From Escherichia phage vB_EcoM_AYO145A, in the sequence record KR014248: DNA of 64,000 nt. One strand, 5' to 3'. Below, piece after piece: positions 855 through 6,948 of this stretch (position 1 is the first letter of the stretch; each line of letters opens with the position of its first letter). The notes beneath the pieces are model-generated. The model was not told the origin of the DNA, did not search any database, and saw only the letters and a list, made by a program, of their open reading frames with translations. The translations under genes and the position numbers were made by a program.

Positions 855-975
855 TATAAATACTTAGAAGATAACTTAAAAGGTTCCTCTAAAAAGGCTA
901 TTTAAACAGATATCTTTCTGGATATCTATCTTTTATCTTAAAAGCCTTTTAAGAGGTCTTATAAGAGGCATACCA

Positions 976-1347
976 ATGAAAAACAGAACAAACAAAGGCC
1001 AGTTTAAAAAAGGCCAGTCTGGAAACCCATCTGGAAGACCAAAAGGCTCTCGTAACAAAAGCTCACTCGTAAAAGCTCAACTGACCATTGATAATTCTGC
1101 TGAGTTCGCTGCAAAGCTGTTTGAGGCGATTGTTACAAGGGACGCGGCTAAGCTTGCAGAGTTCGGGTTAAACACAGATGACGTAACCATCAAGAGTATG
1201 ATTGAGGTCGGTAAAACTATCTTTACTCACTCAGCAGGTGAGATGAAAGCACTTGCAGCAGACACTAAGAAGACTCCTGATAATGGTGGTCAACAACAGA
1301 CAGATAACAAACCAACGTTCTCTGCTGTAGCGACTCTCAAAAAATAA
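976..1347 (+). CDS. hypothetical protein with N-terminal GNPSGRPKG motif (DUF5681-like)
   Basis: ORF track; motif FKKGQSGNPSGRPKG recalled as typical of an uncharacterised phage/plasmid domain. Confidence 0.55.
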   Translation: MKNRTNKGQFKKGQSGNPSGRPKGSRNKSSLVKAQLTIDNSAEFAAKLFEAIVTRDAAKLAEFGLNTDDVTIKSMIEVGKTIFTHSAGEMKALAADTKKTPDNGGQQQTDNKPTFSAVATLKK

Positions 1348-1359
1348 TTTTAAAAGGTG

Positions 1360-1389
1360 TTGACAGACTCTACAAAGTTGCTCTAAAGT
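1360..1389 (+). promoter_or_regulatory. sigma70-like promoter (TTGACA 1360-1365, TAAAGT about 1384-1389)
   Basis: -35/-10 hexamers with 17-18 nt spacing upstream of CDS 1429. Confidence 0.4.
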
Positions 1390-1428
1390 CTGTCACATCA
1401 AACAACAAATGAGAGAAGAGAGTAAAAT

Positions 1429-2844
1429 ATGAGCGAATTATTTAAACATGCGCACCTTCATGCAGGTCGAACTGAAAATGGTGCTGTAAACCATACTTCA
1501 TCAATGTCTGCTCTTGTAGACTTTTACAAAGCTGCTGGTTCTAGCCGTAGCAATGTAGGAATCTTACCAGACCTGTTCTACAAAGCTTTGCGTGAGGATG
1601 TTGATGTTGCAGTTCGTATTTTGCTTCATATGCGAGATGTACGAGAAGGTATGGGTGAGCGTAAAGCTTTCCGAACTGTTTTACTTCAAGCGATTGAAGA
1701 TAAAGTTTTAGAGCCTACGCAGGTTCTTCGCATTATGGATAAGATTGCAGAGCTTGGTCGTTTTGATGACTTCAAAATCTTCGTGGGTACTCGTTTCGAG
1801 ACAGATGCCTTCAAACATTTAGAAGCAGCATTACTAGACCCTGCAACAGCAGGTTTGGCAGCTAAGTGGTTACCACGAGTCAAACCACGTCATAAGCAGT
1901 TTGTAAAACGTTTCTGCAAGTTTGCAAACTTGAGTGAGAAAGAGTACCGCACACTGTTGTCTGCACTATCTGATACAGTTGAACAAAAAATCTCTGCTAA
2001 TGAGTTTGGTAAGATTGACTACAGTAAGATTCCTTCACTTGCTGCTGCACGTTACCAAAAACTCTTTAACCGTAAAGATGGAGAACGCTACAAAGCTTAC
2101 ATCGAGTCACTCTCAAAAGGTGAGGCCAAGATTAACGCTGGTGCTGTTTACCCATACGATGTGATTAAATCTATCAAGTATGGTAATGCAGATGTTGCTA
2201 ATGAGCAGTGGAAAGCACTACCAAACTGGATGGTAGAAGGTGAAAACATCCTGTGTATGACTGATGTTTCAAGCTCAATGTCTTGGGTGAATCTTGGTTC
2301 AATCACTGCCCTTGATATTGGTGTATCCCTTGCCTTGTATGTAGCAGAACGCAATACAGGTTGTTTTAAGAATGAGTTAATGGTTTATTCAACAAACCCT
2401 CATTTCATCGAATTGAGTGGTGATTTACGAAACCGTCATCGTCAGATAATGCGTCATGTTGAATATGGCTCAACTAACTTACAAGCAGCTTTTGACCGTA
2501 TTCTTGAAATAGGCAAGAGAAACAACTTGACTCAGAAAGATATGCCAAGTAAGCTTATTATCTTCTCTGATATGGAGTTCAATCAGGTTGATGGAGCTAA
2601 CGGTCGTACAAACTTTGAAGCAATTCAGAGTAAGTACAAAAAAGCTGGATATGAGATGCCACAACTGGTATTCTGGTACTTAGCAAACCGTAATGGTACT
2701 TGCGAAGTATCTGTTAAGGATAATGGTGTAGCAATGGTATCAGGGTTCTCTCCAGCCACTTTAAAAGCTCTGCTTGGTGGTGAGAAGTTTGACCCAATCA
2801 GCGTAATGCTCAAAGCAGTAATGATTGACCGTTATATCTGGTAA
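1429..2844 (+). CDS. Ro60/Rsr-like protein (TROVE-like N-terminal region plus C-terminal von Willebrand A domain with MIDAS motif DVSSSMS)
   Basis: vWA MIDAS D-x-S-x-S at CMTDVSSSMS; C-terminal 200 aa align by eye to recalled human Ro60 C-terminus (LAVDVSASM / LIVCGMTSNGF...MCGFDTGALDVIRNF vs LCMTDVSSSM / LVFWYLANRNG...VSGFSPATLKALLGG); alternative is a related DUF2828-type vWA protein. Confidence 0.6.
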   Translation: MSELFKHAHLHAGRTENGAVNHTSSMSALVDFYKAAGSSRSNVGILPDLFYKALREDVDVAVRILLHMRDVREGMGERKAFRTVLLQAIEDKVLEPTQVLRIMDKIAELGRFDDFKIFVGTRFETDAFKHLEAALLDPATAGLAAKWLPRVKPRHKQFVKRFCKFANLSEKEYRTLLSALSDTVEQKISANEFGKIDYSKIPSLAAARYQKLFNRKDGERYKAYIESLSKGEAKINAGAVYPYDVIKSIKYGNADVANEQWKALPNWMVEGENILCMTDVSSSMSWVNLGSITALDIGVSLALYVAERNTGCFKNELMVYSTNPHFIELSGDLRNRHRQIMRHVEYGSTNLQAAFDRILEIGKRNNLTQKDMPSKLIIFSDMEFNQVDGANGRTNFEAIQSKYKKAGYEMPQLVFWYLANRNGTCEVSVKDNGVAMVSGFSPATLKALLGGEKFDPISVMLKAVMIDRYIW

Positions 2845-2862
2845 AAAGTTTTAAAAAGGGTA

Positions 2863-2891
2863 TTGACAATGTGTTTGATACCCTTTAATAT
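2863..2891 (+). promoter_or_regulatory. sigma70-like promoter (TTGACA 2863-2868, 17-nt spacer, TAATAT 2886-2891)
   Basis: Near-consensus hexamers preceded by A/T-rich UP-like tract. Confidence 0.55.
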
Positions 2892-2953
2892 GTTCTACAT
2901 AGAAACAAAATGAGAGCTTTTCTAAGATACTGAAAAATATTTTAAAAAAGTTC

Positions 2954-2982
2954 TTGACAACCACTAAAAAATAATGTTAAAG
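2954..2982 (+). promoter_or_regulatory. sigma70-like promoter candidate for tRNA array (TTGACA 2954-2959)
   Basis: Consensus -35; -10 is weak (TTAAAG at 17 nt). Confidence 0.35.
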
Positions 2983-3009
2983 TGGTTACATAGAGTTTGA
3001 AAAGTTTAT

Positions 3010-3086
3010 CTCTGTTTAGCTCAGCTTGGTAGAGCGTTCCGTTTGGGGCGGTAAGGCCGGAGGTTCAAGTCCTCCAACAGAGACCA
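3010..3086 (+). tRNA. tRNA-Pro (anticodon TGG), CCA encoded
   Basis: Acceptor CTCTGTT/AACAGAG, D-arm GCTCAGCTTGGTAGAGC, anticodon loop TTTGGGG, T-arm GGAGGTTCAAGTCCTCC. Confidence 0.8.
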
Positions 3087-3093
3087 AATTAAT

Positions 3094-5859: not shown

Positions 5860-5937
5860 GTTCCAGTATCCCAATTGGCAGAGGATGCAAGCTCAAACCT
5901 TGTATTAGTGACGGTTCGAATCCGTCTTGGAACACCA
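5860..5937 (+). tRNA. tRNA with Leu anticodon CAA, class-I architecture, CCA encoded
   Basis: Acceptor GTTCCAG/TTGGAAC, D-arm TCCCAATTGGCAGAGG, anticodon stem GCAAG/CTTGT loop CTCAAAC, T-arm GACGGTTCGAATCCGTC, A73. Confidence 0.6.
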
Positions 5938-5942
5938 ATTTT

Positions 5943-6018
5943 GCAGGATTAGTTCAAATGGAAAGAGCAACAGTCTACGAAGCTGTTAATAGGGGTTCGA
6001 ATCCCTTATCCTGCGCCA
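5943..6018 (+). tRNA. tRNA-Arg (anticodon ACG), CCA encoded
   Basis: Acceptor GCAGGAT/ATCCTGC, anticodon stem ACAGT/GCTGT loop CTACGAA, T-arm AGGGGTTCGAATCCCTT. Confidence 0.8.
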
Positions 6019-6037
6019 ATTTAAAGAGGCTATTTAG

Positions 6038-6595
6038 ATGAGATATTTGAAGTATGCTTCATGGATTTTCTTAGCTTTGTTAGAGCCATTTGCAGCAATC
6101 TTAGCAGTTATCTTAGCACCTTTCGTAGTTCCATTCTACAGTGAGAAGAAAGGCCACTTACCTTTCGGATTTAGATGGATGGAGACCTATGACAACCCGA
6201 TTGATGGTGATGAAGGCCACGTTAAAAGATGGGCTAAGATTAGAAAGATTGGTAAGCTCGGTGTTTATATGCAGAGAGTTGGATGGCTCTGGAGAAACAA
6301 AGCTTATAACTTCTCTTACCATGTATTAGGAAGAGATGTAAAAGATGTTACTAAGTGGAAAGGTAATATCAACGTAAGTTCTAACCCTGAAGATAATCAG
6401 ACAGGTTATCTCCTAATGTGGAACAGTAATGCTTGGGGATTATTTGCTTTTATCCCATCTATTAAAGTCTTTGGTAAACAATTCTACTGGAGAATTTATG
6501 TTGGGTGGAAACTAAAAAGTGTTGTCCCAGAAGAAAGAGCATTCTCAAGGGAAAGAGTTATGTTGGCATTCTTTATTCATCCACTAAGAAAATAA
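6038..6595 (+). CDS. hypothetical membrane protein embedded in tRNA array (N-terminal hydrophobic helix)
   Basis: ORF track 185 aa; N-terminus WIFLALLEPFAAILAVILAPFVVPF is transmembrane-like; flanked by tRNA genes. Confidence 0.55.
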   Translation: MRYLKYASWIFLALLEPFAAILAVILAPFVVPFYSEKKGHLPFGFRWMETYDNPIDGDEGHVKRWAKIRKIGKLGVYMQRVGWLWRNKAYNFSYHVLGRDVKDVTKWKGNINVSSNPEDNQTGYLLMWNSNAWGLFAFIPSIKVFGKQFYWRIYVGWKLKSVVPEERAFSRERVMLAFFIHPLRK

Positions 6596-6603
6596 AGATT
6601 TAA

Positions 6604-6679
6604 AGGGGATTAGTTTACAAGGTTAAAACCTCGGTCTTTGAAATCGAAGAAGTTGGTTCAATTCCAACATCCCCCGCCA
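6604..6679 (+). tRNA. tRNA-Gln (anticodon TTG), CCA encoded
   Basis: Acceptor AGGGGAT/ATCCCCC (A1-C72 mismatch), anticodon stem TCGGT/ATCGA loop CTTTGAA, T-arm GTTGGTTCAATTCCAAC. Confidence 0.7.
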
Positions 6680-6681
6680 AT

Positions 6682-6760
6682 GCTCCATTACTCCAATTGG
6701 CAGAGAGGCCAGACTTAAAATCTGTGTTATGTATCGGTTCGAATCCGATATGGAGTACCA
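6682..6760 (+). tRNA. tRNA with Leu anticodon TAA, class-I architecture, CCA encoded
   Basis: Acceptor GCTCCAT/ATGGAGT, D-arm CTCCAATTGGCAGAGA, anticodon loop CTTAAAA, T-arm ATCGGTTCGAATCCGAT, A73. Confidence 0.6.
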
Positions 6761-6764
6761 AATT

Positions 6765-6841
6765 TAGCGGTATAGCATAACTGGCAATGCAACAGTCTCT
6801 GAAGCTGTCCTATTAAGGTTCAAATCCTTATGCCGCTGCCA
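6765..6841 (+). tRNA. tRNA-Gln (anticodon CTG), CCA encoded
   Basis: Acceptor AGCGGTA/TGCCGCT, anticodon stem ACAGT/GCTGT loop CTCTGAA, T-arm TAAGGTTCAAATCCTTA. Confidence 0.7.
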
Positions 6842-6872
6842 CTTCTAAGGGTTCTTACGAGAGTCCTTAAAT

Positions 6873-6948
6873 GTGGCCTTATCATAAAAGGTAATGACCC
6901 ATGCTGTGAACATGGTCTATACGGGTTCAAATCCCGTAGGTCACCCCA
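6873..6948 (+). tRNA. tRNA-His (anticodon GTG), CCA encoded
   Basis: Acceptor GTGGCCT/AGGTCAC, anticodon stem CCATG/CATGG loop CTGTGAA, T-arm ACGGGTTCAAATCCCGT. Confidence 0.75.

What the first reader, a model, noticed from the sequence alone, without database searches (positions are those of the whole stretch)
880..6876. Recurrent A/T-rich palindromic AAGAC/GTCTT-type boxes in intergenic spacers
Sequences of the type TTAAAAGACC, TAAAGAC, TTAGAAGAC, AAGACCTTTTTAGGTCTTTTTAGAGGGCTTCTAAGG occur at 880-960, 3729-3760, 4578-4610, 5181-5280 and 6846-6876, and in the two replication-block intergenic regions (35603-35640, 37024-37060). Many form short inverted repeats (for example TTAAAGA-N15-TCTTTAA at 3729-3758). 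They look like a dispersed family of protein-binding or RNA-processing sites.
Basis: seen in the sequence. Interest (0 to 1): 0.4.

Follow-up and report, generated by a model that had tools for sequence, protein, structure and literature searches.

The report
Hairpins flanking phage guide RNAs, tRNAs
The "boxes" are the two arms of a small family of RNA hairpins in a Felix O1-like phage; they sit directly in front of several of its tRNAs and of the guide RNAs of a recently described RNA-guided silencing system (VIPR), and probably mark where long transcripts are cut into separate RNAs.

Summary
The window is a Felixounavirus genome. The listed sequences exist and are non-random, but "AAGAC/GTCTT box" is not the real unit.

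That family has about 10 copies. Each is a 30-40 nt inverted repeat, always co-oriented with transcription, folding into an A/U-rich hairpin with many G.U pairs. Folding is strong on the sense strand and weak on the antisense strand. Changes in relatives keep the pairing (27 variant pair states kept, 8 broken; G.U 14 versus A.C 1).

The two "replication-block" spacers are a VIPR locus. Gene 36851-36249 is Vipr (PDB 36pp, E 9e-82; 98% identical to SUSP1 Vipr), followed by vap1. Four (GGYNN)n guide RNAs (vrRNAs) flank them. A box hairpin abuts the 5' side of each guide tract; in 16 related phage loci, 62 of 66 tracts have one. Other copies lie 1-6 nt upstream of tRNA genes or in an early-operon leader.

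Best reading: these are cis-acting RNA processing, insulating or stabilising hairpins. The structure is well supported; the processing role is inferred. VIPR itself is already published. The leader hairpin shared with the tRNA cluster is not mentioned in the text of those papers.

The parts
875..965 (+). Boxes A and B: the two arms of a long leader hairpin in the 5' UTR of gene 976-1347. It lies downstream of a twin -35 sigma-70 promoter and ends next to the Shine-Dalgarno sequence.
   Evidence: Fold -28.4 kcal/mol, z -3.7. Identical in 20 relatives. In Suspvirus/Mooglevirus one pair changes C-G to U-A via U.G.
3724..3761 (+). Hairpin C (UACG loop), 25-51 nt after tRNA-Asp.
   Evidence: A-U to G.U to G-C series among relatives. 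One relative has a UGCG loop.
4576..4610 (+). Hairpin D: 16 bp, UAA loop, 5-6 nt before the tRNA-like gene 4616-4694.
   Evidence: Sense -17.6 kcal/mol (z -4.35) versus antisense -6.3. In 10 relatives the next gene is instead a tRNA-Arg 5-7 nt away. Homology breakpoints lie at its edges.
5181..5201 (+). Terminator-like hairpin AAGACC-TTTTTA-GGTCTT followed by a T run. It is not a family member, and it overlaps the base of the next hairpin.
   Evidence: Read directly from the sequence. Its loop varies in relatives.
5192..5277 (+). Boxes E and F: the arms of a 25-bp stem with a variable apex, ending 3 nt before tRNA-Leu 5281.
   Evidence: -40.5 kcal/mol, z -5.2. The stem is kept in an 80%-identical lineage through 6 one-sided changes and 1 two-sided change, with 1 break.
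6846..6869 (+). Hairpin G: 10 bp, UACG loop. It fills the tRNA-Gln/tRNA-His spacer.
   Evidence: G.U to A-U and U.G to U-A changes in relatives.
37246..37273 (-). Sigma-70-type promoter (TTGACA-16-TATACT) upstream of the first guide-RNA unit.
   Evidence: 11 of 12 consensus match.
37177..37215 (-). Hairpin K: 18 bp, 5' leader of vrRNA 2a.
   Evidence: Sense -18.1 kcal/mol (z -5.3) versus antisense -3.1. 96.8% of cells paired against 44-63% when the partner is slid; C-G to U.G to U-A series.
37092..37168 (-). vrRNA 2a guide tract, (GGYNN)n.
   Evidence: Period-5 GG scan. NN positions are hypervariable in relatives. Matches the published vrRNA definition.
37060..37092 (-). 3' tail type 1: 7-bp hairpin with the conserved loop ACUACAUUAAAA. 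A 5' GGUAG can pair with the loop CUAC.
   Evidence: A second module type in relatives has a fully compensated stem with the same loop.
37018..37059 (-).
36937..37021 (-). vrRNA 2b guide tract.
36913..36938 (-). 3' tail type 2: GGUAG...CUACC hairpin.
   Evidence: The paralogue at 35511-35536 has GGCAG...CUGCC, a compensated pair.
36873..36910 (-). Hairpin O, between the last tail and the vipr ribosome-binding site.
   Evidence: It is a weak family member by sequence: leave-one-out E 2.6.
36249..36851 (-). vipr (RAMP-like guide-RNA-binding protein). The probable start is the ATG at 36836.
   Evidence: Profile hit to PDB 36pp_D 'SUSP1 Vipr protein', E 9.1e-82. 98% identical to the SUSP1 homologue.
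35806..36246 (-). vap1 (VIPR accessory protein), assigned by synteny.
   Evidence: 99.3% identical to the gene directly after vipr in a contig with the length of the SUSP1 genome. The paper names that gene vap1.
35772..35794 (-). Intrinsic terminator after vap1. Its U run overlaps the 5' arm of hairpin I.
35738..35780 (-). Hairpin I, leader of vrRNA 1a. The window copy carries one stem-breaking G-to-T change relative to relatives.
35670..35741 (-). vrRNA 1a guide tract.
35638..35670 (-). 3' tail type 1 of vrRNA 1a.
35596..35637 (-).
   Evidence: z -4.2 for the 76-nt stretch 35590-35665, which also contains the tail-1 hairpin. The hairpin alone gives about -10.9 kcal/mol on the sense strand; the antisense strand gives -6.6, z -0.5. 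The loop is hypervariable and the stems conserved.
35535..35599 (-). vrRNA 1b guide tract.
35511..35536 (-). 3' tail type 2 of vrRNA 1b.

Best explanation
SHOWN. The boxes are the arms of a lineage-specific family of A/U-rich, G.U-rich hairpins that form in the sense-strand RNA. The core stem is 10-18 bp; three related cases extend to 25-30 bp. Five copies (K, J, O, I, H) are constant elements of a VIPR locus (vipr, vap1 and four (GGYNN)n guide RNAs). Every guide tract is directly preceded by one hairpin. Three copies (D, E/F, G) end 1-6 nt before a tRNA or tRNA-like gene. One (A/B) ends at the ribosome-binding site of the first gene of an early operon.

INFERRED. Guide RNAs and tRNAs are made from multi-unit transcripts, and the mature SUSP1 guide RNA is reported as about 100 nt, roughly the repeats plus a 40-nt tail. 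So the hairpin in front of each unit most likely acts in cis on the precursor. It could be a double-stranded substrate for an endonuclease, with host RNase III the obvious candidate for the 16-30 bp stems. It could also be a structural insulator or end-protecting stem. Either way it would define the 5' boundary of the downstream RNA and separate it from its upstream neighbour. The phage appears to use one generic hairpin module wherever it needs such a boundary.
For: Sense orientation only: 9 of 9 window copies and all 70 distinct variants in relatives.

Strand asymmetry of folding, sense versus antisense: D -17.6/-6.3, K -18.1/-3.1, E/F -40/-28.8, H -10.9/-6.6 kcal/mol.

Variation in relatives: 27 pair-preserving variant states (14 to G.U, 10 from G.U to Watson-Crick, 3 two-sided) against 8 breaking, with only 1 A.C. 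Variable columns are 9.6% in stems and 28% in unpaired positions. The 25-bp E/F stem is kept across an 80%-identical lineage while its apex is replaced. For K, 96.8% of cells pair against 44-63% for slid partners.

Position: 62 of 66 guide tracts in 16 related phage loci have a box ending 0-35 nt upstream, and 43 abut exactly. D keeps its place 5-7 nt before whichever tRNA occupies the slot.

Cross-context sequence relationship.

VIPR identity. Other VIPR types separate their guides with hammerhead ribozymes, so a processing element between guides has a precedent. No processing route for this type appears in the preprints' held text.
Against: No RNA-end or cleavage data were available, so the processing role is inference.

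Covariation is thin for any single hairpin. For K alone, 50 of 500 column shuffles match the observed score. Variant states are not independent events.

G (10 bp) and C (about 12 bp) are short for RNase III.

C is not followed by a known stable RNA.

The 5' arm of H, J and O could instead pair with the loop of the preceding tail (UUAAAA with UUUUAA). The published roughly 40-nt tail would reach the first bases of the box.

Strand-biased C-to-T mutation could contribute to the excess of G.U.

Distant VIPR loci (Vipr 37-40% identical) have guide tracts but no such boxes, so the box is not essential to VIPR in general.
Confidence: 0.5

Rival explanations
1. The boxes are DNA operators. They would be three tandem near-palindromic CTT(W)nAAG units at 11-12 bp spacing, bound by a phage DNA-binding protein. 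Candidates are Vap1, predicted to bind DNA, or the XRE-type HTH protein encoded at 34858-34529. Binding would control transcription of guide RNAs, tRNAs and early genes.
For: Each box can be read as about three direct repeats of a self-complementary 12-mer. An HTH regulator lies nearby. The VIPR preprint describes type II vap genes as predicted DNA-binding proteins. A 1.66-kb non-coding region elsewhere in the genome is packed with similar CTTnnAAG-type words at roughly 11-nt spacing.
Against: Strict sense orientation. About 24 G.U oppositions and no A.C within the predicted stems; a DNA palindrome should decay symmetrically. Intermediates in relatives are G.U, not A.C, by 14 to 1. The antisense strand folds poorly. 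Loop positions, which are the centre of the middle unit, are the most variable part. Most copies are not at promoters.
Confidence: 0.15
2. In the VIPR locus the box is not a leader of the next guide. It would belong to the 3' tail of the preceding one, with its 5' arm forming the published pseudoknot with the tail loop. The resemblance to hairpins in the tRNA cluster would then be incidental.
For: The tail loop UUAAAA(A) is complementary to UUUU(U)AA or UUUCUAA in the 5' arm of H, J and O (read from the sequence). The tail is defined as about 40 nt after the last repeat and contains a pseudoknot.
Against: K and I have no preceding guide yet are full boxes. The 3' arm is as conserved as the 5' arm and changes in step with it. 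Tail type 2 of vrRNA 1b has no box after it. The cross-context profile hits are the best new hits in 128 kb, on the correct strand. A different pseudoknot (5' GGUAG with loop CUAC) fits inside the tail itself.
Confidence: 0.15
3. The hairpins are junction sequences for modular recombination. Like the promoter-stem-loop cassettes of T4-type phages, they would persist because they mediate the shuffling of tRNA and guide-RNA modules.
For: The number and order of guide units differ among otherwise 95-99% identical genomes, with boxes at every junction. The edges of hairpin D coincide with breakpoints between alternative tRNA cassettes.
Against: Most indel breakpoints in the tRNA cluster lie at tRNA ends, not at boxes. 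Recombination does not explain G.U-specific pairing or the strand polarity. This reading is compatible with the main explanation rather than exclusive of it.
Confidence: 0.1
4. The boxes are transcription terminators or attenuators.
For: 5181-5201 and 35772-35794 are stem-plus-U-run sites adjacent to boxes.
Against: Family members have A/U-rich stems, with the U run inside the stem rather than after it. None was called by the terminator scan. Several sit between tRNAs that must be co-transcribed.
Confidence: 0.05
5. The pattern is a chance product of A/T-rich spacer composition.
For: The spacers are A/T-rich, and AAGACC is also enriched in coding sequence.
Against: Shuffle controls, leave-one-out and cross-context profile hits, and conservation above that of the flanks in relatives.
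Confidence: 0.02

Closest known systems
VIPR (Viral Interference Programmable Repeat) loci of phage SUSP1, type II (bioRxiv 10.64898/2026.04.26.720920 and 10.64898/2026.04.26.720927)
   Same: The same vipr and vap1 genes (98% and 99% identical). The same (GGYNN)n guide tracts with hypervariable NN. The same conserved 3' tail. Arrays both upstream and downstream of the genes.
   Different: This phage has two guides upstream and two downstream, where SUSP1 has one and three. The preprints' held text describes a two-part vrRNA (repeats plus 3' tail) and does not mention a conserved hairpin in front of each guide, or copies of it elsewhere in the genome.
CRISPR repeats that form hairpins cut by Cas6
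   Same: A constant, partly palindromic element between variable guide segments. The mature guide starts at or near the 3' base of the hairpin. Vipr is a RAMP relative.
   Different: No evidence that Vipr cuts RNA. The same hairpin family is also used next to tRNAs and an mRNA. The stems are A/U-rich and G.U-rich, and the loops are not conserved.
RNase III processing stems (T7 early mRNA sites R0.3-R1.3; rRNA operon stalks; the RNase III cut in the T4 tRNA cluster) - from general knowledge
   Same: Double-stranded stems of 16-30 bp placed between functional units of a polycistronic transcript, including a 5' leader and a tRNA cluster. Stem conserved, loop free to vary.
   Different: Cleavage is untested. 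Two members are only 10-12 bp. T7 sites typically carry an internal loop, which most of these lack.
Hammerhead ribozymes between guides in other VIPR types
   Same: An RNA element between adjacent vrRNAs that would separate them.
   Different: No ribozyme fold. No Rfam hit above chance apart from tRNAs, and the long hairpins scored only as generic miRNA-precursor-like stems.
Promoter-early stem-loop (PeSL) cassettes of T4-type phages - from general knowledge
   Same: Short repeated regulatory cassettes in spacers of a lytic phage, associated with modular shuffling.
   Different: PeSLs combine a sigma-70 promoter with a terminator hairpin. The boxes contain neither. Separate promoter-in-hairpin elements do exist in this window.

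Membership tests
VIPR system (applies to the 35.5-37.3 kb part) | Vipr protein (minimal RAMP) | tested here: met
   Family profile hits PDB 36pp_D 'SUSP1 Vipr protein' at E 9.1e-82 over residues 1-189. 98% identical to the SUSP1 and SUSP2 homologues.
VIPR system (applies to the 35.5-37.3 kb part) | Adjacent vap accessory gene | tested here: met
   The gene 4 nt downstream is 99.3% identical to the gene following vipr in the 90,743-bp contig that matches the SUSP1 genome length. No Pfam domain.
VIPR system (applies to the 35.5-37.3 kb part) | vrRNA made of 9-16 tandem GGY/NN units on the vipr strand, with hypervariable NN | tested here: met
   Four tracts of about 12-16 units. 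They are the only period-5 GG arrays in the window. NN varies among 95-99% identical genomes while GGT is kept. Syntenic GGC/GGT arrays occur in phages with 37-40% identical Vipr.
VIPR system (applies to the 35.5-37.3 kb part) | Invariable structured 3' tail (about 40 nt, with a pseudoknot in the SUSP1 clade) | tested here: inconclusive
   Two conserved tail types with hairpins, and compensated stems between paralogues and module types. The pseudoknot pairing could not be checked against the published figure or model.
VIPR system (applies to the 35.5-37.3 kb part) | The NN code matches a natural target under the 1-nt skip rule | tested here: inconclusive
   One exact-match scan of IMG/VR with 11 units of vrRNA 1b found nothing. 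Mismatch-tolerant searching of E. coli genomes was not possible.
RNase III substrate | Roughly 20 bp or more of mostly uninterrupted double-stranded RNA | tested here: inconclusive
   Met for E/F (25 bp), A/B (about 30 bp with small loops) and the 3984-4128 stem (24 bp). Borderline for K (18), D (16) and H/J/O (12 plus 4-6). Not met for G (10).
RNase III substrate | Staggered cleavage by RNase III in vivo or in vitro | not testable with these tools
   No transcript-end data for this phage group were found.
Intrinsic (Rho-independent) terminator | G+C-rich stem directly followed by a U run | tested here: not met
   No family member was called. Only the neighbours 5181-5201 and 35772-35794 fit.
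CRISPR repeat | Identical direct repeats separating unique spacers, with cas genes and Cas6-type cleavage | tested here: not met
   The variable parts are GGYNN tracts, not spacers. The boxes differ from one another. No cas genes are present. The similarity is functional analogy only.
Palindromic DNA operator | Strand-symmetric conservation of half-sites | tested here: not met
   Profile scores are 20-23 bits on the sense strand and 7-9 bits on the antisense strand. G.U 14 versus A.C 1 among variants.

The most novel reading that the evidence does not exclude
The box hairpin is the VIPR counterpart of a CRISPR repeat: a dedicated processing signal recognised by a phage-encoded factor rather than by host RNase III. 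That factor could be Vipr itself, which is a RAMP and so a relative of Cas6, or Vap1, or another early protein. The same factor would also mature part of the phage's tRNA cluster and an early mRNA, giving the phage one private RNA-processing pathway for guides and tRNAs.
Probability: 0.12. Interest if true: 0.7.

Novelty: new member of a known kind. Interest (0 to 1): 0.45.

Why it matters
VIPR was described only in 2026, and the held text of the two preprints does not say how guide RNAs of the SUSP1 type are cut out of their arrays. A conserved hairpin abutting the 5' side of 62 of 66 guide tracts is a concrete, testable candidate for that signal, and the same hairpin recurs in front of tRNAs in the same phage. 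It also gives a practical boundary element for anyone building multi-guide VIPR arrays. For genome annotation, it shows that the odd 'ACC-rich' spacers of Felix O1-like phages are guide-RNA arrays, not replication elements.

Tried and rejected
1. Y RNA / Ro60. The neighbouring 471-aa 'RNA-binding protein' (DUF2828, DUF7788, vWA) suggested a Ro60 and Y-RNA pair. No TROVE domain was found, there was no PDB sequence hit, and no YrlA or Y RNA hit in Rfam. Dropped.

2. Before Vipr was identified, I considered a TRAP-like ring protein, an R-loop origin, G-quadruplexes and antisense rut sites for the GGTNN arrays. The PDB and literature hits superseded these.

3. A single covariance model for the whole family. 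MAFFT aligns the paralogues one base out of structural register, so I used per-locus alignments and a sequence profile instead.

4. Natural target of vrRNA 1b by exact gapped pattern in IMG/VR: no hit.

5. Literature on Felix O1 transcription or RNA processing. Only the 2010 genome paper was found; it lists promoters and terminators, calls the temporal control unknown, and does not mention these elements.

6. An AlphaFold model of Vipr was made (pLDDT 93.5) but was not needed once the PDB match appeared.

7. Terminator and promoter readings of the boxes.

Full report
WHAT THE WINDOW IS. The region 800-7100 is 95-98% identical to about 240 Felix O1-like myoviruses. The best match is Escherichia phage EcoM2 at 98.1%. 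It carries 25 tRNA genes found by ARAGORN and one further tRNA-like element found by Rfam (4616-4694), all between 3010 and 7955 on the + strand. Genes run on the + strand except for a block at about 31.9-42.4 kb, where GC skew changes sign.

CHECKING THE OBSERVATION. All seven places hold A/T-rich inverted repeats.
- Words of this kind are far commoner in the roughly 4 kb of non-coding DNA than in genes. AAGACC occurs at 2.96/kb against 0.57/kb, and TTAAAAG at 2.22/kb against 0.28/kb.
- They are also commoner than in dinucleotide shuffles of the spacers: AAGACC 8 against 0.77 expected, TTAAAAGG 7 against 0.55.
- Window-wide, TTAAAAGG occurs 15 times against 4.5+/-2.0 expected, and AAGACC 71 times against 32.8+/-6. 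AAGACC is therefore also favoured inside genes and is not a specific marker.

The unbiased word count shows that several unrelated families are mixed together:
- TGTTGACA sigma-70 promoters with A-rich upstream regions.
- CAGAAGACC...GGTCTGG cassettes in tRNA spacers.
- GGTATGG/GGTAAGG repeats.
- CCTTTTT terminator tails.

THE REAL FAMILY. In the transcribed orientation the boxes align as 5'-YTTWAARRGKYYTTY-loop-RRGRGTYYTTWAA-3'. I labelled the copies as follows.
- B: 936-965.
- C: 3724-3761.
- D: 4576-4610.
- G: 6846-6869.
- K: 37215-37177 (-).
- J: 37059-37018 (-).
- O: 36910-36873 (-).
- I: 35780-35738 (-).
- H: 35637-35596 (-).
- Two long hairpins are built from the same kind of arms: A/B at 875-965 and E/F at 5192-5277.

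A profile of the nine copies finds only them at E<1e-3 in both strands of the window. Every hit is on the sense strand, at 16-25 bits against 7-10 bits for the antisense strand. This search is circular, so I ran two further tests.
- Leaving members out: K, D, G and J come back as the first new hit (E 1.5e-4 to 5.5e-3). C and B are marginal (0.04-0.08). O is not recovered.
- Crossing contexts: a model built only from copies in the 35-37 kb spacers finds D and B as its best new hits (E 0.006, 0.022). A model built only from D, G, C and B finds J, K and H (0.0013, 0.0017, 0.027). All are on the sense strand.

So the family is real, but small and only moderately similar.

THEY ARE RNA HAIRPINS.
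- Each copy folds into a near-perfect stem. K is 18 bp (-18.1 kcal/mol, z -5.3). D is 16 bp (-17.6, z -4.35). E/F gives -40.5 (z -5.2) and A/B -28.4 (z -3.7). H, J, O, C and G have z between -2.1 and -4.2.
- The stems hold many G.U pairs: 24 in the nine structures analysed, one of which is the vrRNA tail hairpin rather than a box. There are no A.C oppositions within the predicted stems.
- The complementary strand therefore folds poorly: D -6.3, K -3.1, H -6.6, all within the shuffle range.
- In 43 related loci from IMG/VR, all 70 distinct variants lie in the sense orientation.
- Variation is concentrated in loops and flanks. 28% of unpaired columns vary against 9.6% of paired columns.
- Of 35 variant pair states, 14 are Watson-Crick to G.U, 10 are G.U to Watson-Crick, 3 are two-sided compensations, 7 are other mismatches and 1 is A.C.
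- Stepwise series are visible. In C: A-U, then G.U, then G-C. In K: C-G, then U.G, then U-A.
- The 25-bp E/F stem survives in the 80%-identical Suspvirus/Mooglevirus lineage through six one-sided changes and one two-sided change, with one break. The apex of the hairpin has been replaced.

For K alone the formal control is only suggestive. 96.8% of cells pair, against 44-63% with slid partners, but 50 of 500 column shuffles reach the observed covariation. The combined pattern, above all the 14:1 ratio of G.U to A.C and the strand polarity, is what a transcribed RNA structure predicts. It is not what a symmetric DNA operator predicts.

WHAT THE '35.6 kb' AND '37.0 kb' SPACERS ARE. On the sense (-) strand these spacers are modular. 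Each module is a box hairpin, then a tract of GGTNN pentamers, then a conserved small hairpin (AGUCUCA-ACUACAUUAAAA-UGAGACU) or a GGYAG...CURCC hairpin.
- A scan for GG at 5-nt phase finds such tracts at only four places in the window, all here.
- Among genomes that are otherwise 95-99% identical, GGT is kept while the NN positions differ at most sites. The number of modules also varies.
- Phages whose homologue of gene 36851-36249 is only 37-40% identical have GGCNN/GGTNN tracts at the same positions and on the same strand.
- The protein family has more than 500 members and no Pfam domain. Its profile matches PDB 36pp_D, 'SUSP1 Vipr protein', at E 9.1e-82.

Two 2026 preprints describe this system as VIPR. 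Vipr, a minimal RAMP, polymerises on vrRNAs made of 9-16 GGY/NN units followed by an invariable 3' tail of about 40 nt with a pseudoknot. The NN dinucleotides read double-stranded DNA with a one-base skip and silence competing phages and satellites. SUSP1 has one vrRNA upstream and three downstream of vipr-vap1.

The window's Vipr is 98% identical, and the next gene 99.3% identical, to those of the contig with the SUSP1 genome length. This phage therefore has a type II VIPR locus with two vrRNAs upstream (tracts 37168-37092 and 37021-36937) and two downstream (35741-35670 and 35599-35535). A sigma-70 promoter lies at 37273-37246 in front of hairpin K. A terminator at 35794-35772 lies just before hairpin I.

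HOW THE BOXES RELATE TO THE FUNCTIONAL RNAS.
- In 16 related genomes, 62 of 66 guide tracts have a box-profile hit ending 0-35 nt upstream, and 43 abut the tract exactly. O sits between the last tail and the vipr ribosome-binding site.
- In the tRNA cluster, D ends 5-6 nt before the tRNA-like gene. In 10 relatives a tRNA-Arg occupies that slot, and D ends 5-7 nt before it.
- E/F ends 3 nt before tRNA-Leu. G fills the Gln/His spacer.
- A further 24-bp stem (3984-4128, z -6.1) ends 5 nt before tRNA-Lys.
- A/B ends at the Shine-Dalgarno sequence of gene 976.
- Only C has no known RNA directly downstream.
- Distant VIPR loci lack the boxes. The hairpin is therefore a module of this phage lineage that VIPR arrays use, not a universal VIPR part.

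MECHANISM (INFERRED). The reported mature SUSP1 vrRNA is about 100 nt, and the purified vrRNA1 carries 12 repeats. So the hairpin in front of each tract is probably removed.
- Expression of vrRNA1 plus vipr in E. coli gave vrRNAs that co-purified with Vipr. Host enzymes and/or Vipr therefore seem to be enough.
- Loops are free to vary while stems are kept. This suggests recognition of double-stranded RNA rather than of a loop.
- I therefore rank 'processing, insulating or end-protecting hairpin, probably an RNase III-type substrate' first. I give it about 0.5 overall: about 0.8 that these are functional RNA hairpins, and less that they are cleavage sites.

Rivals, with rough probabilities:
- DNA operators for Vap1 or a nearby HTH protein: 0.15.
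- Part of the preceding vrRNA's pseudoknot tail: 0.15.
- Recombination junctions: 0.1, and compatible with the main reading.
- Terminators: 0.05.
- Chance: 0.02.

NOVELTY. VIPR itself is already published. Neither the Felix O1 genome paper nor the held text of the VIPR preprints mentions these hairpins or a processing route for this VIPR type; I could not see their figures. The finding is thus a new member of a known kind (inter-unit RNA hairpins), with some value for understanding vrRNA biogenesis.

Noticed in passing
window 35511-37273 (- strand): A complete VIPR locus: vipr, vap1 and four (GGYNN)n guide RNAs with two types of 3' tail. NN positions are hypervariable, and the number of guide units varies from 1 to 3 per spacer among near-identical phages.
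   Followed up: yes
window 3172-3262, 3340-3416, 3757-3845, 3846-3990: A second repeat family in tRNA spacers. Each spacer is closed by a 4-bp outer helix that differs but stays complementary in all four copies (UGAC/GUCA, UUGC/GCAA, GAGC/GCUC, UUAC/GUAA). Next come an AGA/G internal loop and a conserved helix AGACCR/YGGUCU with a covarying R-Y pair, then CAGCAA. The interior is variable in relatives while the ends are invariant. Function unknown.
   Followed up: partly
window 3984-4128: A 24-bp long-range stem (z -6.1) encloses about 95 nt of structured RNA and ends 5 nt before tRNA-Lys. Upstream, at 3875-3960, are tRNA remnants (T-arm-like GAAGGTTCGATTCCTTC).
   Followed up: partly
window 4616-4694: A tRNA-like element called by Rfam (31.7 bits) but not by ARAGORN. 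In 10 related loci the same slot, after hairpin D, holds a regular tRNA-Arg.
   Followed up: partly
window 2855-2886, 1360-1395, 35440-35500 (-): Strong sigma-70 promoters sit inside stem-loops. The -35 box lies in the loop or arm, and the arms flank the promoter, for example AAAGGGTAT...ATACCCTTT. This resembles the promoter-stem-loop cassettes of T4-type phages.
   Followed up: no
window 823-860 and 42428-42465: Two early operons share a twin -35 arrangement, TTGACA-N6-CTTGACAAGGTG. Each is followed by a long A/U-rich structured leader made of TTAAAAG-type words.
   Followed up: no
L056 16969-18629 (EcoM2 PQ818761 41468-43128; outside the window): A 1.66-kb stretch without annotated genes between convergent gene blocks. 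It is packed with CTTGTTAG, CTGTTAAG and CTTAAAAG words at about 11-nt spacing. It could be an origin, a packaging region or a long non-coding RNA region.
   Followed up: no
L056 10838-16719 (outside the window): A dozen 66-103 nt spacers between small early genes repeat two cassette types. One is CTTTACANGGGGCTT...AAGCCCCAGATAAAGAGCTTTACC. The other is ATCAACGGGGAGGGAATGACCTTCCCCACTAAATAAAG. The 2010 Felix O1 paper partly noted these as 57-bp and 39-bp direct repeats.
   Followed up: no
window 1429-2844: A 471-aa protein with DUF2828, DUF7788 and vWA domains, annotated as 'RNA-binding protein' (PHROG 850), lies directly upstream of the tRNA cluster. No TROVE domain and no PDB sequence match, so a link to Ro60 and Y RNA was not supported.
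   Followed up: partly
window-wide: AAGACC occurs 71 times on both strands against 32.8 expected, mostly inside genes. This looks like a codon or dipeptide-usage effect unrelated to the boxes.
   Followed up: no
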